A stretch of 23,413 nucleotides of DNA from a virus (lineage: Duplodnaviria; Heunggongvirae; Uroviricota; Caudoviricetes). Both the position numbers and the translations under genes were made by a program. Numbering within the stretch: the stretch's first letter is position 1; each line of letters begins with the position of its first letter. This document shows, piece by piece, positions 16,385-23,413 of the stretch. The DNA is taken from IMG/VR virus record IMGVR_UViG_2740892229_000010. One strand, 5' to 3'. The notes under the pieces are model-generated. The model ran no database searches. It was not told the DNA's origin and worked only from the letters and a program-made list of their open reading frames with translations.

Positions 16385-17292
16385 ATGCCAACACCAAATC
16401 CTCTGGCACCGGTAAAAGGTGCCGGTACCACCCTGTGGGTTTATAACGGTCAGGGTGATGCCTATGCAAACCCGTTGTCAGACGATAACTGGCAGCGACT
16501 GGCACAGGTAAAGGATCTGACGCCGGGCGAGATGACGGCAGAACCCTACGATGATAACTACCTGGATGATNNNNNNNNNNTACCACTCTGTGGGTTTACA
16601 ACGGCAAGGGTGATGCTTATGCAAACCCGTTGTCAGACGATGACTGGCAGCGACTGGCTAAGGTGAAGGATCTGACGCCGGGCGAGATGACGGCAGAACC
16701 CTACGATGATAACTACCTGGATGATGAAGACGCGGACTGGACCGCGACCGGGCAGGGGCAGAAGTCTGCAGGAGATACCAGTTTTACGCTGGCCTGGAAA
16801 CCGGGAGAAGAAGGTCAGAAAGGGCTTATAGGCTGGTTTGAAAGCGGGGATGTGCGGGCCTATAAAATCCGTTTCCCAAATGGCACGGTGGATGTGTTCC
16901 GTGGCTGGGTCAGCAGTATCGGTAAGGCCGTGACGGCGAAAGAAGTGATCACCCGCACGGTGAAAGTCACTAACGTGGGCAAACCTTCCGTGGCGGAAGA
17001 ACGCAGCGAAATTACGCCGGCCACTGCAATTAAGGTGACACCGACATCCGGTACGGTGGCAAAAGGGAAAACAACCACCCTGACGGTTTCTTTTGAGCCG
17101 GAAAGTGCAACCGACAAGACGTTCAGAGCGGTTTCCGCCGATCCGTCGAAAGCCACCATTAGTGTGAAAGATATGACAATTACGGTAAACGGCGTGGCGA
17201 CAGGTAAGGTGCAGATCCCTGTGGTGAGCGGAAATGGTCAGTTCGCCGCAGTGGCTGAAGTCACCGTTACTGAAGCGGGCGCTGCAGGGTAA
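16385..17292 (+). CDS. V: Major tail protein V, allele 1, with an N run
   Basis: [63 protein letters not shown] and [40 protein letters not shown] match lambda gpV, including the C-terminal Ig-like extension. N 16571-16580 is followed by an allelic repeat of the preceding 30 codons. Confidence 0.9.
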
Positions 17293-17305
17293 ACGGAGGT
17301 AATAC

Positions 17306-17728
17306 ATGTTTCTGAAAACAGAACAATTTGAATATAACGGTGTGTCCGTCACGCTTTCCGAATTGTCTGCGCTGCAGCGGTTTGATTATATGAAGTTTGT
17401 TTCAGACGCAGCACAACAGAAGACAACGAAGCATAATGCCGTGCACATTAACCAGCGATATCTGGAAACGGCATCCCTGCTTGTGGCGATGTCGCTATGG
17501 CATTCCCATTCCCTCAAAGGCACTCTGGCCTCTCCGGAGACAGAGATGCAGCAGATCCGCCGTGAAGTGATGCTGGGATGGCCTGCTGATGCACTGAATC
17601 AGGCAACGAACCGGGTGCTTTATCTTTCAGGTATGCTGGATAACCGGCACGATGCCGATCCTGAACAAACCGGGAAAGCAGAAGCGACTGAGCCGGTAAC
17701 ATCAAAAAAGCATTCGAAGGCGAGCTGA
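17306..17728 (+). CDS. G: Tail assembly chaperone G, allele 1
   Basis: MFLKTEQFEYNGVSVTLSELSALQR…LLVAMSLWH… matches lambda gpG. Confidence 0.85.
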   Translation: MFLKTEQFEYNGVSVTLSELSALQRFDYMKFVSDAAQQKTTKHNAVHINQRYLETASLLVAMSLWHSHSLKGTLASPETEMQQIRREVMLGWPADALNQATNRVLYLSGMLDNRHDADPEQTGKAEATEPVTSKKHSKAS

Positions 17729-18168
17729 ACTTTGTCCTGAAACTGGCGCGAGAGATGGGGAGACCCGACTGGCGCGCCATGCTTGCCGGGATGACATCCA
17801 CCGAATATGCCGACTGGCGACGTTTTTACTGCACGCATTATTTTCAGGATACCCAACTGGACGCTCATTTTTCCGGGCTGATGTACGCCGTACTCAGCCT
17901 GTTTTTTGGCGATCCGGATATGCATCCGGCGGATTTCAGTCTGCTTGCTCCAGCGTGTGAGGAAGAGCAGACGGAGATGCCGGACGAGGAAGAAATGCTG
18001 ATGCAGAAAGCGACAGGAGTTGCCGGAGGCGTCCGGTTCGGAGGGGACGGAGGGCGCGATATTTCACCTTCTGCGGATGTGGTGGATGTCAGCGAGGATG
18101 ATGTTGCATTAATGATGGCTTCAGCGGGGATTTCCGGAGGTGTGAGATATGTCCCAGCCAGCGGGTGA
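17306..18168 (+). CDS. T: Tail assembly chaperone GT fusion by programmed -1 frameshift, allele 1
   Basis: The T frame is -1 relative to G and is open from 17692 to 18168 (…KKAFEGELNFVLKLAREMGRPDWRAMLAGMTSTEYADWR…). The heptamer A AAA AAG at 17704-17710 is in the correct X XXY YYZ register in the G frame. Confidence 0.7.
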
Positions 18169-18349
18169 TCTGGTTATTGATTTGAGTCTGGATGCGGCCC
18201 GGTTTGATGAACAGATGGCCCGGGTACACCGTCATTTTTCCAGTCTGGAGGCGGATGCCAGAAAAACCGCCAGTACTGTTGAACAGGGGCTGAGCCGACA
18301 GGCGCTGGCTGCACAAAAAGCCGGGATATCAGTCGGACAGTATAAGGCT
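18149..18349 (+). CDS. H: Tail tape measure protein H, allele 1, N-terminal fragment truncated by an N run
   Basis: MSQPAGDLVIDLSLDAARFDEQMARVHRHFSSLEADARKTASTVEQGLSRQALAAQKAGISVGQYKA matches the lambda gpH N-terminus and overlaps the T stop. Confidence 0.8.
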
Positions 18350-18359
18350 NNNNNNNNNN

Positions 18360-18774
18360 GAACGGCACGGTGGATGTGTTCCGTGGCTGGGTCAGCAGTA
18401 TCGGTAAGGCCGTAACGGCGAAGGAAGTGATCACCCGTACGGTGAAAGTGACCAACGTGGGCAAACCTTCTGTGGCGGAAGAACGCAGCGAAATTACGCC
18501 GGTCACTGCGATTAAGGTGACGCCGACATCTGGTACGGTGGCAAAAGGGAAAACAACAACCCTGACGGTTTCTTTTGAGCCGGAAAGTGCAACCGACAAA
18601 ACGTTCAGAGCGGTTTCCGCCGATCCGTCAACGGGAACCATTGCTGTGAAAGATATGGCGATCACTGTGACGGGGGTTAAGGCTGGAAAAGTGAGTATCC
18701 CCGTGATTTCCGGTAATGGTCAGTTTGCCACGGTAGCTGAAGTCACCGTTACTGAAGCGGGCGCTGCAGGGTAA
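18360..18774 (+). CDS. V: Major tail protein V, allele 2, C-terminal fragment
   Basis: After N 18350-18359: [37 protein letters not shown]…TVTEAGAAG, near-identical to the C-terminus of the 16385-17292 copy, with substitutions in the Ig-like part. Confidence 0.8.
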
Positions 18775-18787
18775 ACGGAGGTCATAC

Positions 18788-19219
18788 ATGTTTCTGAAAA
18801 CCGAACAATTTGAATATAACGGTGTGTCCGTCACGCTTTCCGAGCTGTCTGCGCTGCAGCGTATCGAGCATCTTGCCCTGCTGAAACGACGGGCAGAACA
18901 GGCTGAAGCCAGCGGTAACCTGCAGGTGAGCGTGGAAGACCTTGTCAGAACCGGCGCGTTTCTGGTGGCGATGTCCCTGTGGCATAACCATCCACAGAAA
19001 ACGGAGTCACCATCAATGAATGAGGCTGTGATGCAGATCGAACAGGAGGTGCTCACCACCTGGCCTGCTGATGCCATTGCCCGGGCGGAAGACGTGGTGT
19101 TGCGTCTGTCCGGGATGAGCGGGGCTGTTCATGCGGATACTGACAGCACCGAAGTGGCGAAAAATAACGCGCTGACTGATGATGATTTTTCTGCGGGAAA
19201 GTCTTCGACGGCGAGCTGA
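18788..19219 (+). CDS. G: Tail assembly chaperone G, allele 2
   Basis: MFLKTEQFEYNGVSVTLSELSALQRIEHLALLKRRAEQAEASGNLQVSVEDLVRTGAFLVAMSLWHNHPQKTESPSMNEAVMQIEQEVLTTWPADAI… is closer to lambda gpG than allele 1 is. Confidence 0.85.
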   Translation: MFLKTEQFEYNGVSVTLSELSALQRIEHLALLKRRAEQAEASGNLQVSVEDLVRTGAFLVAMSLWHNHPQKTESPSMNEAVMQIEQEVLTTWPADAIARAEDVVLRLSGMSGAVHADTDSTEVAKNNALTDDDFSAGKSSTAS

Positions 19220-19659
19220 ATTTTGCCCTCAGACTGGCGCGTGAGATGGGGAGGCCTGACTGGCGCGCCATGCTTGCCGGGATGACATCCACCGAATATG
19301 CCGACTGGCGACATTTTTACCGTACGCATTATTTTCTCGATACCCAACTGGATATGCATTTTTCCGGGCTGACGTACGCCGTACTCAGCCTGTTTTTTTG
19401 CGATCCGGATATGCATCCCTCTGATTTCAGTCTGCTTGCCCCCCGGCGTGAGGAAGCGCAGACGGAGATGCCGGATGAGGAAAAAATGCTGATGCAGAAA
19501 GCGGCAGGACTTGCCGGAGGCGTCCGGTTTGGTGGGGACGGAGGGCGTGAGATTTTATCGTCTGCGGATGTGGCGGATGTCAGCGAGGATGATGTCGCAT
19601 TAATGATGGCTTCAGCGGGGATTTCCGGAGGTGTGAGATATGTCCCAGCCGGTTGGTGA
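18788..19659 (+). CDS. T: Tail assembly chaperone GT fusion by programmed -1 frameshift, allele 2
   Basis: The lambda-type heptamer G GGA AAG at 19195-19201 is in register in the G frame; the -1 frame then reads GKVFDGELNFALRLAREMGRPDWRAMLAGMTSTEYADWR… to TGA 19657-19659. Confidence 0.75.
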
Positions 19660-22600
19660 TCTTGTTATTGACCTGAGTCTGGATGCGGTCCGTTTCGATG
19701 AGCAGATGAGCCGGGTAAGGCGTCATTTTTCCGGACTGGAGACTGACGCCAGAAAAACCGCCGGTGTTGTTGAGCAGAACCTGAGTCGTCAGGCGCTGGC
19801 TGCACAAAAAGCCGGGATTTCCGTCGGGCAGTATAAAGCGGCCATGCGAACCCTGCCCGCACAGTTTACGGATATCGCCACGCAGCTTGCCGGTGGTCAG
19901 AATCCCTGGCTGATCCTGCTGCAACAGGGCGGTCAGGTGAAGGACTCCTTCGGCGGGATGATCCCCATGTTCAGGGGACTTGCTGGTGCGATCACCCTGC
20001 CGATGGTCGGGGTCACCTCGCTGGCGGTGGCGACAGGTGCGCTGGCGTACGCCTGGTACCAGGGGGATTCCACGCTTTCAGCGTTTAATAAAACCCTGGT
20101 TCTTTCCGGTAATCAGTCCGGACTGACTGCCGATCGCATGCTGACGCTCTCCAGAGCCGGACAGGCCGCAGGGCTGACGTTTAACCAGGCGAGTGAGTCA
20201 CTGGCAGCCCTGGTGAATGCCGGTGTGCGTGGTGGTGAACAGTTTGATGCCATCAACCAGAGTGTCGCGCGTTTTGCTTCTGCATCCGGTGTGGAGGTGG
20301 ACAAGGTGGCAGAGGCTTTCGGAAAACTGACCACCGACCCGACGTCGGGACTGATGGCGATGGCGCGCCAGTTCCGTAACGTGACGGCAGAGCAGATTGC
20401 GTATGTTGCACAGCTGCAGCGTTCCGGAGACGAGGCCGGGGCATTGCAGGCGGCGAACGATATCGCCACGAAAGGCTTTGATGAGCAGACCCGTCGCCTG
20501 AAAGAAAACATGGGAACACTGGAGACCTGGGCGGATAAAACAGGGAAGGCATTCAAATCGATGTGGGATGCCATTCTGGATATCGGTCGTCCTGAGTCCT
20601 CAGCGGATATGCTCGCCAGTGCACAGAAGGCATTTGATGAGGCAGATAAAAAATGGCAGTGGTACCAGAGCCGGAGCCAGCGCCGGGGAAAAACCGCCTC
20701 TTTCCGGGCCAACCTTCAGGGCGCATGGAATGACCGGGAAAATGCCCGTCTGGGGCTGGCAGCGGCCACGCTGCAGTCGGATATGGAAAAAGCCGGTGAA
20801 CTGGCCGCCAGGGACCGGGCCGAACGGGACGCATCACAGCTGAAGTATACCGGAGAGGCGCAGAAGGCGTATGAGCGTCTGCTGACGCCGCTGGAGAAAT
20901 ATACCGCCCGTCAGGAAGAACTGAATAAGGCCCTGAAAGACGGGAAAATCCTGCAGGCGGATTACAACACGCTGATGGCGGCGGCGAAAAAGGATTATGA
21001 ATCGACGCTGAAAAAGCCGAAGTCGTCAGGAGTCAAAGTGTCAGCCGGTGAGCGTCAGGAAGACCAGGCGCATGCTGCCCTGCTGGCGCTTGAAACCGAG
21101 CTCCGGACGCTGGAAAAACACAGCGGTGCGAATGAGAAAATCAGCCAGCAGCGTCGCGATTTATGGAAAGCGGAAAATCAGTATGCGGTCCTGAAAGAGG
21201 CAGCCACGAAACGGCAGTTATCTGAGCAGGAAAAATCCCTGCTGACCCATGAGAAAGAGACGCTGGAGTACAAACGCCAGCTGGCTGAGCTGGGAGACAA
21301 AGTTGAACACCAGAAACGGCTGAATGAGCTGGCACAGCAGGCTGCGCGGTTTGANNNNNNNNNNGCCATGCGCACACTGCCCGCACAGTTCACGGATATT
21401 GTCACTCAGCTTGCCGGTGGTCAGAATCCCTTCCTTATCATGCTGCAGCAGGGGGGGCAGATCAGCGATTCATTCGGTGGACCGCTCAGCCTGCTTACCC
21501 TGCTGAAGGAGGAACTTCTCGGGATCAGGGATGCCTCTGAATCATCAGAGGAGTCGCTGTCAGATACGGCAAATGCACTGGCTGAAAATGCCCGGAATGC
21601 CGGTGAGCTGGGACGATTTATGTCGGTGGCCCGTGTGGCGGCAGGTGGCGGGGTTGCCGTACTGGCCGCGCTTGCTGCCGCCGCCTGGCAGGCAGAGCAG
21701 GCTGACCGGGCCTTATTGCGTTCACTGACCCTGACCGGAGGGGCTGCTGCCACCACAACGGCAGAATTGTGGAAAATGGCCGGGGTGATCAGCGATGAAG
21801 CCGGTGGTGGTATCAGACAGGCGGCAGAAAATCTGGCCCGTCTGGCAGAAAGCGGGAAATATACCGCCGGGCAGCTACGGATCATGGGGGAAACCTCTCA
21901 GAGATGGCTGCAGACGGTGGGGGACGATGCCGGGAAGGTGGAAAAAGCCTTTGAAGGGATTGCAGCAGATCCGGTGAAGGCGCTGGCCTCCCTGAATCAG
22001 CAGTATAACTTCCTGAGCGTTTCCCAGTTACGCCATATTGATGAGCTTGAGCGCACGAAAGGTAAACAGGCTGCGGTGACGGAGGCGATGTCCCTGTTTG
22101 CGGATGTCATGAATGCACGTCTGGAGCAACTTGATAAAGCGGCCACGCCGGTGGAAAAAATCTGGGACGATGTTAAAACCTGGACTTCTGACGCATGGGC
22201 ATGGATAGGTGATCATACACTGGGGGCACTCAGTCTGATCACTGACGTGGTGGCAGGAACCGTTGAACAGGTGAAGCTGCTGCTTGTGCAGGGGGATCTG
22301 GCGCTGGCTGAATTTATTCAGTCAGCCTGGGAAACGACAAAGAATGTGCCCGGCGTTGGTGCGTTGTTTGGTGAACTGGCAGAAGAGAACCGCGTATTTA
22401 TTGAGAAAACAAAACGTGATGAACTGGCGCTGAGAAAATCCATTGCGGAACGGGATGCGCGTATACGCCAGGGGGAAATGGGGTACATCAACCGCTCGCG
22501 TGCAACAGGCGTCAGCAAAGGTCCTGGGCAGCAGGAAGCCGTCAGCCGTCTGGCTGAAGAGCTGACAGGTAAAAAGCATACATCACCGAAAACGCGCTCT

Positions 22601-23413
22601 GCCGGGGAGAGGGAAGAGGAGCAGGCAAGAGAGGCTCTGCTTGCCCTTGAAGCTGAGCTCAGGACGCTGGAAAAACACAGCGGTGCGAATGAGAAAATCA
22701 GTCGGCAGCGCCGTGATTTATGGAAGGCGGAAAGTCAGTATGCGGTCCTGAAAGAGGCTGCCACGAAACGACAGTTATCTGAGCAGGAAAAATCCCTGCT
22801 GGCGCATAAAGACGAGACGCTGGAGTACAAACGCCAGCTGGCTGAGCTGGGCGACAAGGTTGAATACCAGAAACGCCTGAATGAGCTGGCACAGCAGGCG
22901 GTGCGGTTTGAAGAGCAGCAGAGCTCGAAGCAGGCCGCCATCAGCGCAAAAGCCCGCGGTCTCACTGACCGTCAGGCGCAGCGGGNNNNNNNNNNGCAGT
23001 TATCCTGGCAGGAAAAATCCCTGCTGGCCCATGAGAAAGAGACGCTGGAGTACAAACGCCAGCTGGCTGACCTGGGCGACAAGGTTGAACACCAGAAACG
23101 CCTGAATGAGCTGGCACAGCAGGCGGTGCGGTTTGAAGAGCAGCAGAGCGCGAAGCAGGCCGCCATCAGCGCAAAAGCCCGCGGTCTCACTGACCGTCAG
23201 GCGCAGCGGGAGTCTGAAGCGCAGCGTCTTCGGGACGTGTACGGTGATAATCCGCAGGCGCTGGCCCGGGTCACTGGGGCACTGAAACAGACATGGGCGG
23301 ATGAAGACATGCTGCGCGGTGACTGGCTGGCCGGGCTGAAGTCCGGCTGGGGGGAGTGGGCGGAAAGTGCGACGGACAGTTTTTCGCAGGTTAAAAGTGC
23401 TGCCACGCAGACC
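19640..23413 (+). CDS. H: Tail tape measure protein H, partial at the window end, composite across two N runs
   Basis: ATG 19640 (MSQPVGDLVIDLSLDAVRFDEQMSRVRRHFSGLETDARKTAGVVEQ…AAMRTLPAQFTDIATQLAGGQNPWLILLQQGGQVKDSFGGMIPMFRGLAGAITLPMVG…) is collinear with lambda gpH. After N 21355-21364 a second allele restarts near H residue 70 with a different N-proximal domain and rejoins the common sequence around 22620; N 22986-22995 adds a third overlapping piece. No stop codon before the window end. Confidence 0.85.
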   Translation, partial: MSQPVGDLVIDLSLDAVRFDEQMSRVRRHFSGLETDARKTAGVVEQNLSRQALAAQKAGISVGQYKAAMRTLPAQFTDIATQLAGGQNPWLILLQQGGQVKDSFGGMIPMFRGLAGAITLPMVGVTSLAVATGALAYAWYQGDSTLSAFNKTLVLSGNQSGLTADRMLTLSRAGQAAGLTFNQASESLAALVNAGVRGGEQFDAINQSVARFASASGVEVDKVAEAFGKLTTDPTSGLMAMARQFRNVTAEQIAYVAQLQRSGDEAGALQAANDIATKGFDEQTRRLKENMGTLETWADKTGKAFKSMWDAILDIGRPESSADMLASAQKAFDEADKKWQWYQSRSQRRGKTASFRANLQGAWNDRENARLGLAAATLQSDMEKAGELAARDRAERDASQLKYTGEAQKAYERLLTPLEKYTARQEELNKALKDGKILQADYNTLMAAAKKDYESTLKKPKSSGVKVSAGERQEDQAHAALLALETELRTLEKHSGANEKISQQRRDLWKAENQYAVLKEAATKRQLSEQEKSLLTHEKETLEYKRQLAELGDKVEHQKRLNELAQQAARFXXXXAMRTLPAQFTDIVTQLAGGQNPFLIMLQQGGQISDSFGGPLSLLTLLKEELLGIRDASESSEESLSDTANALAENARNAGELGRFMSVARVAAGGGVAVLAALAAAAWQAEQADRALLRSLTLTGGAAATTTAELWKMAGVISDEAGGGIRQAAENLARLAESGKYTAGQLRIMGETSQRWLQTVGDDAGKVEKAFEGIAADPVKALASLNQQYNFLSVSQLRHIDELERTKGKQAAVTEAMSLFADVMNARLEQLDKAATPVEKIWDDVKTWTSDAWAWIGDHTLGALSLITDVVAGTVEQVKLLLVQGDLALAEFIQSAWETTKNVPGVGALFGELAEENRVFIEKTKRDELALRKSIAERDARIRQGEMGYINRSRATGVSKGPGQQEAVSRLAEELTGKKHTSPKTRSAGEREEEQAREALLALEAELRTLEKHSGANEKISRQRRDLWKAESQYAVLKEAATKRQLSEQEKSLLAHKDETLEYKRQLAELGDKVEYQKRLNELAQQAVRFEEQQSSKQAAISAKARGLTDRQAQRXXXXQLSWQEKSLLAHEKETLEYKRQLADLGDKVEHQKRLNELAQQAVRFEEQQSAKQAAISAKARGLTDRQAQRESEAQRLRDVYGDNPQALARVTGALKQTWADEDMLRGDWLAGLKSGWGEWAESATDSFSQVKSAATQT

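What the first reader, a model, noticed from the sequence alone, without database searches (positions are those of the whole stretch)
17672..19201. The two G-T alleles use different -1 frameshift heptamers
In allele 2 the lambda-type heptamer G GGA AAG (19195-19201) is in the correct register in the G frame. In allele 1 GGGAAAG is also present (17672-17678) but in the wrong register (the zero frame reads GGG AAA) and the -1 frame hits a TGA at 17689-17691, so it cannot be used. About 30 nt downstream allele 1 has A AAA AAG (17704-17710) in the correct register, from which the -1 frame is open to the T stop at 18168. The frameshift signal has therefore been replaced or relocated between two otherwise homologous chaperone genes.
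Basis: seen in the sequence. Interest (0 to 1): 0.55.

Follow-up and report, generated by a model that had tools for sequence, protein, structure and literature searches.

The report
Known slip-site variants, lambdoid tail chaperones
Two copies of the lambda-type tail-assembly chaperone gene pair, from two different E. coli prophages glued side by side by draft-assembly linkers, use different but already catalogued and about equally efficient frameshift signals (A AAA AAG and G GGA AAG) at exactly the same position, so this is ordinary.

Summary
G1 (17306-17728) has an in-register A AAA AAG at 17704-17710, and G2 (18788-19219) has an in-register G GGA AAG at 19195-19201. The extra GGGAAAG at 17672 is out of register and blocked by a TGA at 17689-17691.

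- **Not relocated.** Both working heptamers sit at the same homologous site, 15 nt before the G stop and 56 nt before the T 'DWRAML' motif. The difference is an in-place change of the first three bases.
- **The upstream GGGAAAG is chance.** It occurs at the expected background rate and is present in only 14 of 21 allele-1-type loci.
- **Not neighbouring alleles.** The window is 19 contigs joined by 10-N linkers, one of them at 18350-18359. The allele-1 contig continues at 21365 on a closed genome, so the two copies belong to two different lambdoid prophages.
- **Already published.** Sharma et al. 2014 (PMC4066793) list both E. coli prophage clusters, A_AAA_AAG_25 and G_GGA_AAG_4, and measured nearly equal efficiencies.

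Across 122 loci the site reads GGGAAAG (84), AAAAAAG (21) or GGAAAAG (17), sharing an A_AAG core. Verdict: real, already known, low interest.

The parts
17306..17728 (+). Gene G, copy 1 (tail assembly chaperone gpG, 140 aa), from the O26/O145/Stx1-phage-type prophage
   Evidence: ORF. Pfam PF06894, E=8e-35. Its contig is 99.7% identical to closed genome NZ_CP074885.1, where the gene is annotated gpG.
17704..17710 (+). In-register -1 slip heptamer A AAA AAG of copy 1
   Evidence: It starts on codon position 3 of G1. It is identical in 21/21 allele-1-type loci at the same position. It lies 15 nt before the G stop and 56 nt before the DWRAML codons.
17704..18168 (+). -1 frame (T) part of the predicted G-T fusion, copy 1 (KKAFEGELNF...; fusion of about 287 aa)
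   Evidence: The frame is open from 17692 to 18168. Pfam PF06223, E=1.2e-11.
17672..17678 (+). Out-of-register GGGAAAG: a chance occurrence, not a signal
   Evidence: It starts on codon position 1. It occurs at chance frequency in the window. It is conserved in only 14/21 allele-1-type loci.
17689..17691 (+). TGA that closes the T frame upstream of the real slip site
17719..17787 (+). Predicted downstream RNA structure, copy 1 (outer stem 8 nt after the heptamer, enclosing a GGCGCG/CGCGCC stem). A possible stimulator; unproven.
   Evidence: strand folding z=-2.7. Consensus structure over 24 sequences: 98% of cells paired, but only one covarying outer-stem pair.
18350..18359 (.). 10-N contig linker between the two copies (an assembly join, not real sequence)
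18788..19219 (+). Gene G, copy 2 (gpG, 143 aa; 75% identical to lambda gpG, 46% to copy 1), from a second prophage
   Evidence: Pfam PF06894, E=1e-50. Its contig is 99.7% identical to L001.
19195..19201 (+). In-register -1 slip heptamer G GGA AAG of copy 2 (lambda type)
   Evidence: It starts on codon position 3 of G2. It has the same position and sequence as in lambda. It is present in 84 loci.
19195..19659 (+). -1 frame (T) part of the predicted G-T fusion, copy 2 (GKVFDGELNF...; fusion of about 290 aa)
   Evidence: Pfam PF06223, E=2.4e-12.
19210..19278 (+). Predicted downstream RNA structure, copy 2 (same architecture as in copy 1)
21365..22985 (+). True continuation (tape measure gene H) of the copy-1 contig, displaced by contig ordering
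   Evidence: It maps to L123 19770-21390 at 99.0%, directly abutting the copy-1 contig at L123 18001-19769.

Best explanation
The window holds the V-G-T-H tail-gene segments of two different lambdoid prophages from one draft E. coli assembly. They lie next to each other only because contigs were ordered against a reference and joined with 10-N linkers.

Each segment encodes the lambda-type tail assembly chaperone pair. Normal translation gives gpG. A small fraction of ribosomes slip back one base on a heptamer 15 nt before the G stop codon and continue in the T frame, producing the gpGT fusion.

The slip site is at the same homologous position in both copies and in lambda. Only the first three bases differ, so the P-site codon is GGA (tRNA-Gly) in copy 2 and AAA (tRNA-Lys) in copy 1. 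The A-site part, A AAG read by tRNA-Lys(UUU), is invariant. The extra GGGAAAG upstream in copy 1 is a chance, non-functional occurrence.

Shown here: the anatomy, the register, the positional homology, the conservation and the assembly structure. Inferred from work on lambda and from reporter data in E. coli: that frameshifting actually occurs at these sites and at similar low efficiency.
For: - **Register and open frames:**
- **Family membership of G and T:**
- **Gene order V-G-T-H:** annotated relatives.
- **Same position:** the layout is heptamer + 15 nt + TGA in copy 1, copy 2, lambda, VT1-Sakai and O26. In 122 loci the heptamer lies 56 nt before the DWRAML motif, reading GGGAAAG in 84, AAAAAAG in 21 and GGAAAAG in 17.
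- **Frame junction:** the T-frame peptide is conserved from the heptamer onward (GK/KK-[AV][FL]..E..F.L.LARE) and not before it.
- **Fusion is required in relatives:** most of the GGAAAAG loci (all but two of the distinct sequences listed) have no ATG, GTG or TTG in the T frame ahead of the T domain, so the fusion is the only route to T there.
- **Not a sequencing error:** the copy-1 contig is at least 99% identical to 454 complete E. coli records. Copy-1-type G is found in 645 of 5426 complete genomes.
- **Assembly structure:** 18 N-runs, overlapping reference coordinates, and the copy-1 contig abutting segment 21365-22985 on a closed genome.
- **Literature:**
  - Sharma et al. 2014 (PMC4066793) Table S4 lists prophage clusters A_AAA_AAG_25 ('tail assembly chaperone', 53 genes, marked true) and G_GGA_AAG_4 ('gpG', 74 genes, marked true).
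  - Their measured efficiencies are 0.29 / 4.3 / 39% for AAAAAAG and 0.28 / 3.8 / 43% for GGGAAAG, for no stimulator, IS911 stimulators and IS3 pseudoknot respectively.
  - In lambda the zero frame is kept about 96% of the time, and slippage depends on tRNA-Lys(UUU) (PMC3296357; PMC5009743).
Against: - There is no protein-level evidence for either fusion in this strain.
- In the E. coli-type loci an ATG lies 51 nt after the heptamer in the T frame, and PGAP annotates T as a separate gene. Sequence alone does not exclude independent initiation of T.
- I did not verify that ECs1801, the representative gene of Sharma's cluster, is the direct ortholog of copy 1.
- That the two copies sit in one isolate, rather than in a mixed sample, is assumed.
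Confidence: 0.9

Rival explanations
1. The ancestral lambda-type GGGAAAG in copy 1 fell out of register, and a new slip site (A AAA AAG) arose about 30 nt downstream, so the signal was relocated.
For: Copy 1 does contain both an out-of-register GGGAAAG at 17672 and an in-register AAAAAAG at 17704.
Against: - The AAAAAAG occupies exactly the alignment columns of GGGAAAG in copy 2 and in lambda.
- The 17672 motif lies in a diverged part of G, which is only 46% identical between the copies.
- The motif occurs at chance frequency.
- It is absent from 7 of 21 allele-1-type loci, including VT1-Sakai.
Confidence: 0.03
2. T is made on its own from the internal ATG (17755 or 19246), as the genome annotations imply, and the heptamers are irrelevant.
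For: - An ATG is present 51 nt after the heptamer in all E. coli-type loci.
- RefSeq annotates a separate 'tail assembly protein T' CDS.
Against: - The literature read here describes gpG and the frameshift fusion gpGT as the products in lambda and does not mention a free T protein. From my own recollection of Levin et al. 1993, not read here, no separate T product was detected.
- The T-frame residues between the heptamer and that ATG are conserved.
- In the Enterobacter, Citrobacter and Kluyvera relatives the Met codon is Phe. Most of those loci have no start codon at all in that stretch, yet the slip site is kept.
Confidence: 0.04
3. In copy 1 the shift is made by RNA polymerase slipping on the A6 run (transcriptional slippage) rather than by the ribosome.
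For: CAAAAAAG contains six consecutive A residues.
Against: - To my knowledge, efficient transcriptional slippage in E. coli needs longer runs, about 8-9 or more A/T. I did not check this here.
- The homologous GGGAAAG and GGAAAAG sites have only 3-4 A residues, yet must deliver the same product.
- A AAA AAG is one of the three best ribosomal -1 heptamers in E. coli.
Confidence: 0.03
4. The difference is a sequencing or assembly error in a fragmented draft.
For: The window is a heavily fragmented draft of 19 contigs in 23 kb.
Against: The slip region of copy 1 is identical to that of a closed O26:H11 chromosome, and 14 of the surveyed allele-1-type loci share the same sequence around the site. 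The copy-1 contig is at least 99% identical to 454 complete-genome records.
Confidence: 0.01

Closest known systems
Bacteriophage lambda G / G-T programmed -1 ribosomal frameshift (Levin, Hendrix & Casjens 1993; Xu, Hendrix & Duda 2004, 2013, 2014)
   Same: - Gene order V-G-T-H and the same Pfam families.
- T lies in the -1 frame, overlapping the 3' end of G.
- The slip heptamer is 15 nt before the G stop.
- Copy 2 has the identical heptamer G GGA AAG, and its gpG is 75% identical to lambda gpG.
   Different: - Copy 1 has A AAA AAG in place of G GGA AAG.
- Its G body is diverged, 44% identical to lambda gpG.
- The P-site tRNA would be tRNA-Lys instead of tRNA-Gly.
E. coli prophage frameshift clusters A_AAA_AAG_25 (ECs1801, tail assembly chaperone) and G_GGA_AAG_4 (gpG) of Sharma et al. 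2014, NAR 42:7210 (PMC4066793, Table S4)
   Same: These are the same two heptamer classes in E. coli prophage tail-chaperone genes. Both are marked as true frameshift cases with a longer frameshift product. Both are flagged as having a potential downstream structure and no upstream Shine-Dalgarno-like element. VT1-Sakai, from the same O157:H7 Sakai strain as ECs1801, carries the copy-1-type site.
   Different: Nothing substantive. I did not verify that ECs1801 itself is the ortholog of copy 1.
dnaX and IS911/IS3-family A AAA AAG frameshift signals
   Same: The heptamer is the same as in copy 1. The slippage chemistry, tRNA-Lys(UUU) in both the P and A sites, is also the same.
   Different: Those signals rely on strong stimulators (an upstream SD-like sequence and a downstream hairpin or pseudoknot) and reach tens of percent. 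Here no SD-like element is seen. The downstream structure is only predicted, and by analogy with lambda the expected rate is a few percent.

Membership tests
Lambda-type gpG/gpGT tail assembly chaperone with programmed -1 frameshift | The two ORFs lie between the major tail protein gene (V) and the tape measure gene (H). | tested here: met
   Both contigs run V (3' part), G, T, then the start of H. Near-identical annotated records show the order V-G-T-H, as does lambda.
Lambda-type gpG/gpGT tail assembly chaperone with programmed -1 frameshift | Sequence homology of the upstream ORF to gpG and of the downstream ORF to gpT. | tested here: met
   PF06894 matches at E=8e-35 and 1e-50. PF06223 matches at E=1.2e-11 and 2.4e-12. 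All are above the curated cut-offs.
Lambda-type gpG/gpGT tail assembly chaperone with programmed -1 frameshift | The downstream ORF is in the -1 frame relative to G and overlaps its 3' end. | tested here: met
   The overlap windows are 17692-17728 (37 nt) and 19186-19219 (34 nt).
Lambda-type gpG/gpGT tail assembly chaperone with programmed -1 frameshift | An X XXY YYZ slippery heptamer, in register, lies inside the overlap. | tested here: met
   A AAA AAG at 17704-17710 and G GGA AAG at 19195-19201 both start on codon position 3 of G.
Lambda-type gpG/gpGT tail assembly chaperone with programmed -1 frameshift | The slip site is positionally homologous to that of lambda. | tested here: met
   It lies 15 nt before the G stop and 56 nt before the DWRAML motif in copy 1, copy 2 and lambda, and in all 122 surveyed loci.
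Lambda-type gpG/gpGT tail assembly chaperone with programmed -1 frameshift | A G-T fusion protein is actually made at a low, fixed ratio to G (about 1:30 in lambda). | not testable with these tools
   This needs protein or reporter data. Reporter efficiencies for the two heptamers in E. coli are nearly equal.
dnaX / IS3-family high-efficiency A AAA AAG signals | An upstream Shine-Dalgarno-like stimulator lies 6-17 nt before the heptamer. | tested here: not met
   No SD-like motif is seen in GACTGAGCCGGTAACATC upstream of 17704. Sharma et al. score both prophage clusters 'N' for SD.
dnaX / IS3-family high-efficiency A AAA AAG signals | A downstream hairpin or pseudoknot stimulator lies 5-9 nt after the heptamer. 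| tested here: inconclusive
   A structure with an outer stem 8 nt after the heptamer is predicted in both copies and in relatives (z = -2.2 to -3.7 in four of the five sequences folded, -1.0 in the fifth). It is almost invariant, with only one covarying outer-stem pair, probably a single evolutionary event.

The most novel reading that the evidence does not exclude
The conserved core of this family's signal may be only the A-site tetramer A_AAG plus a fixed downstream RNA structure, with the P-site triplet free to drift. Three versions are seen: GGA, AAA, and the non-canonical GAA in G GAA AAG, found in 17 Enterobacter, Citrobacter and Kluyvera-type loci.

The three versions put different tRNAs in the P site: Gly(UCC), Lys(mnm5s2UUU) and Glu(mnm5s2UUC). 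Co-resident prophages could therefore have G:GT ratios that respond differently to the host's tRNA thiolation state, which is known to modulate lambda G-T frameshifting and phage yield (PMC3296357).
Probability: 0.2. Interest if true: 0.35.

Novelty: already known. Interest (0 to 1): 0.1.

Why it matters
It matters little beyond correct annotation.
- Both heptamers are catalogued frameshift signals for E. coli prophage tail chaperones and have near-equal measured efficiency. The difference does not point to a new mechanism.
- The window is a reference-ordered pseudo-scaffold, so apparent duplications or 'alleles' in it are interleaved paralogous prophage contigs.
- RefSeq annotations of these loci still show T as a free-standing gene rather than as a ribosomal-slippage fusion.
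- The fixed position of the site, with three P-site variants around an invariant A_AAG, illustrates how a slip site can change by single G-to-A steps without losing function.

Tried and rejected
- **Relocation of the slip site.** Rejected after measuring distances to the G stop and to the T-domain motif in 122 loci.
- **The upstream GGGAAAG as a remnant signal.** Rejected on register, the closed -1 frame, chance frequency and lack of conservation.
- **Tandem duplication within one phage.** Rejected by the N linker and by mapping contigs to two closed genomes. A search for exact end overlaps between contigs found none, which was uninformative.
- **Sequencing error.** Rejected by identity to closed genomes.
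- **Downstream RNA structure as a proven stimulator.** The structure is predicted consistently but is nearly invariant, so covariation cannot decide.
- **Xu et al. 2004 (Mol Cell).** I tried to read it for its table of slip sites, but it is not held in the library.
- **Direct proof that one closed genome carries both G types.** Not obtained, because the search tool lists only the best place per record. Indirect support comes from up to 8 G-T places per genome, and from O157:H7 and O111 strains appearing in both hit lists.

Full report
**1. What is in the sequence**

Reading 17200-19800 and listing ORFs shows two similar gene pairs on the + strand.
- Copy 1 has G at 17306-17728. An overlapping -1 frame is open from 17692 to the stop ending at 18168.
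- Copy 2 has G at 18788-19219. Its -1 frame is open from 19186 to 19659.

- GGGAAAG at 17672 begins on codon position 1 of G1, so the zero frame reads GGG AAA. The -1 frame there ends at TGA 17689-17691.
- AAAAAAG at 17704 and GGGAAAG at 19195 both begin on codon position 3, the X XXY YYZ register.

Pfam places both upstream proteins in PF06894 (lambda TAC protein G). It places both -1-frame products in PF06223 (minor tail protein T), all above the curated cut-offs.

**2. The slip site was not relocated**

In copy 1, copy 2, lambda, VT1-Sakai and the E. coli O26:H11 11368 prophage, the heptamer is followed by exactly 15 nt and then the G stop codon.

I collected 80 loci from IMG/VR and 38 from one-genome-per-species contigs, plus lambda and annotated relatives. 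I then measured the heptamer position relative to the conserved T motif DWRAML.
- In all 122 loci the site lies 56 nt before that motif.
- It reads GGGAAAG in 84 loci, AAAAAAG in 21 and GGAAAAG in 17.
- The alignment of the region has no gaps, and the heptamers occupy the same columns.

The two copies therefore differ by an in-place change of the first three bases, which alters the P-site codon only. The A-site part, A AAG, is invariant.

The T-frame peptide is conserved from the heptamer onward and not before it. This marks the heptamer as the frame junction in all three variants.

**3. The upstream GGGAAAG is noise**

- The motif occurs 4 times in the window against 3.7 expected.
- At the position homologous to 17672 it reads GGTAAAG in 6 and GGGAAAA in 1 of 21 allele-1-type loci, VT1-Sakai among them.
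- The working AAAAAAG, by contrast, is present in 21 of 21.

**4. The 'two alleles' are two prophages joined by an assembly artefact**

The window has 18 runs of exactly 10 N, splitting it into 19 contigs. One run, at 18350-18359, lies between the two copies.

The best complete-genome match covers the 23.4 kb window in only 16.8 kb. The contigs map to overlapping reference coordinates with alternating identity, about 100% for some and 82-96% for others.

Mapping to a second closed genome (NZ_CP074885.1, locus L123) settles the layout.
- The copy-1 contig 16581-18349 maps to L123 18001-19769 at 99.7%.
- Window segment 21365-22985 maps to L123 19770-21390 at 99.0%, directly abutting it.
- The copy-2 contig 18360-21354 is 99.7% identical to the other reference prophage, L001, and is wedged in between.

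So the two G-T pairs belong to two lambdoid prophages of a poly-lysogenic E. coli. Such genomes hold up to 8 G-T loci.

**5. Not an error, and common**

- The copy-1 contig is at least 99% identical to 454 complete E. coli records and to Stx1a-converting phages.
- A copy-1-specific piece of G is found in 645 of 5426 complete genomes; the sampled hits were O157:H7, O26, O111, O103 and O145 strains.
- The copy-2 type is found in 3476 genomes.

**6. Mechanism**

By homology with lambda, most ribosomes terminate at the G stop. A few percent slip back one base on the heptamer and make the G-T fusion. The G:GT ratio of about 30:1 is needed for tail assembly (PMC5009743; PMC3296357).

In copy 2 the P-site and A-site codons GGA AAG re-pair to GGG AAA. 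In copy 1, AAA AAG re-pairs to AAA AAA.

Sharma et al. 2014 (PMC4066793) measured all 64 heptamers in E. coli. C_CCA_AAG, G_GGA_AAG and A_AAA_AAG were the three best.

| Heptamer | No stimulator | IS911 stimulators | IS3 pseudoknot |
|---|---|---|---|
| AAAAAAG | 0.29% | 4.26% | 39.0% |
| GGGAAAG | 0.28% | 3.80% | 43.0% |

The swap is therefore expected to be functionally near-neutral. A_AAG is by far the best tetramer. This makes single-step G-to-A intermediates such as the observed G GAA AAG plausible without loss of function. That last point is inference.

Most GGAAAAG loci have no start codon in the T frame ahead of the T domain, and the Met at the annotated T start is Phe there. This argues against independent initiation of T.

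**7. Possible stimulator**

Folding the 90 nt after the heptamer gives the same architecture in both copies, in lambda and in an Enterobacter relative.
- An outer stem starts 8 nt after the heptamer.
- It encloses a GGCGCG/CGCGCC stem.
- The z-scores range from -2.2 to -3.7 in four of the five sequences folded (-1.0 in the Kluyvera one).

The consensus over 24 distinct sequences keeps 98% of cells paired, but nearly all pairs are invariant. Only one outer-stem pair covaries (GC versus AU, 12:12), probably a single evolutionary event.

The result is inconclusive. It agrees with Sharma et al., who flag 'structure: Y, SD: N' for both clusters.

**8. Comparison with what is known, and verdict**

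Sharma et al. Table S4 already lists two E. coli prophage clusters.
- A_AAA_AAG_25: ECs1801, tail assembly chaperone, 53 genes, marked true.
- G_GGA_AAG_4: gpG, 74 genes, marked true.

Variation of slip sequences among tail-chaperone frameshifts in general is also documented (PMC10885494).

Novelty: already known. Interest: low.

Noticed in passing
window 1-23413 (N runs at 411, 941, 1801, 2783, 4270, 8112, 8636, 8881, 9376, 9956, 10256, 12830, 13915, 15466, 16571, 18350, 21355, 22986): The whole window is a pseudo-scaffold of 19 short contigs joined by 10-N linkers and ordered against a reference prophage. Contigs from at least two related lambdoid prophages are interleaved and overlap in reference coordinates. 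Any apparent duplication in this window, of head genes, V, G-T or H, is suspect.
   Followed up: yes
L102-L118 around position 1450 (Enterobacter, Citrobacter, Kluyvera, Pluralibacter, Yokenella, Superficieibacter and other prophages): A third, non-canonical slip sequence, G GAA AAG, sits at exactly the homologous position in 17 loci. No canonical X XXY YYZ heptamer is in register in the overlap. In most of them the T frame has no start codon before the T domain. This suggests A_AAG-based slippage with near-cognate P-site re-pairing (GAA to GGA).
   Followed up: partly
window 17719-17787 and 19210-19278; lambda L082 1225-1293: A predicted RNA structure starts 8 nt after the heptamer and is conserved from E. 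coli to Kluyvera-type loci. It is built from nearly invariant nucleotides, including synonymous positions of LAREMGRPDWRAMLAG. Only one pair covaries, so a role in frameshift stimulation is unproven.
   Followed up: partly
L087-L101, L119, L121, L122 (genome-contig hits): Contigs labelled Neobacillus, Oceanobacillus, Kitasatospora, Shewanella, Leeuwenhoekiella, Pseudoxanthomonas, Enterococcus and others carry sequence identical to lambda across the 137-nt window compared around the slip site. Many of these contig names give coverage of about 1x or less. This is almost certainly lambda DNA contamination of those assemblies.
   Followed up: partly
L001 17396-17809, L084 1475-1888, L123 19175-19588 (equivalent to window 17755-18168 and 19246-19659): RefSeq/PGAP annotates 'tail assembly protein T' as a free-standing CDS from the internal ATG, and no ribosomal-slippage G-T fusion is annotated. 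In VT1-Sakai the T CDS is annotated shorter still (309 nt).
   Followed up: partly
L120 (Shigella flexneri CP182557.1) around 1447-1548: This G-T region is decayed. The GGGAAAG heptamer is kept, but small changes downstream close the T frame, consistent with a degraded prophage.
   Followed up: no
window 17306-17380 versus 18788-18862, and the G bodies downstream: The two G genes are mosaic. The first 25 codons are identical and the T domains are 84% identical, but the middle and C-terminal parts of G are so diverged that G is only 46% identical overall. This is typical lambdoid mosaicism, and the heptamer type travels with the G-body type.
   Followed up: partly
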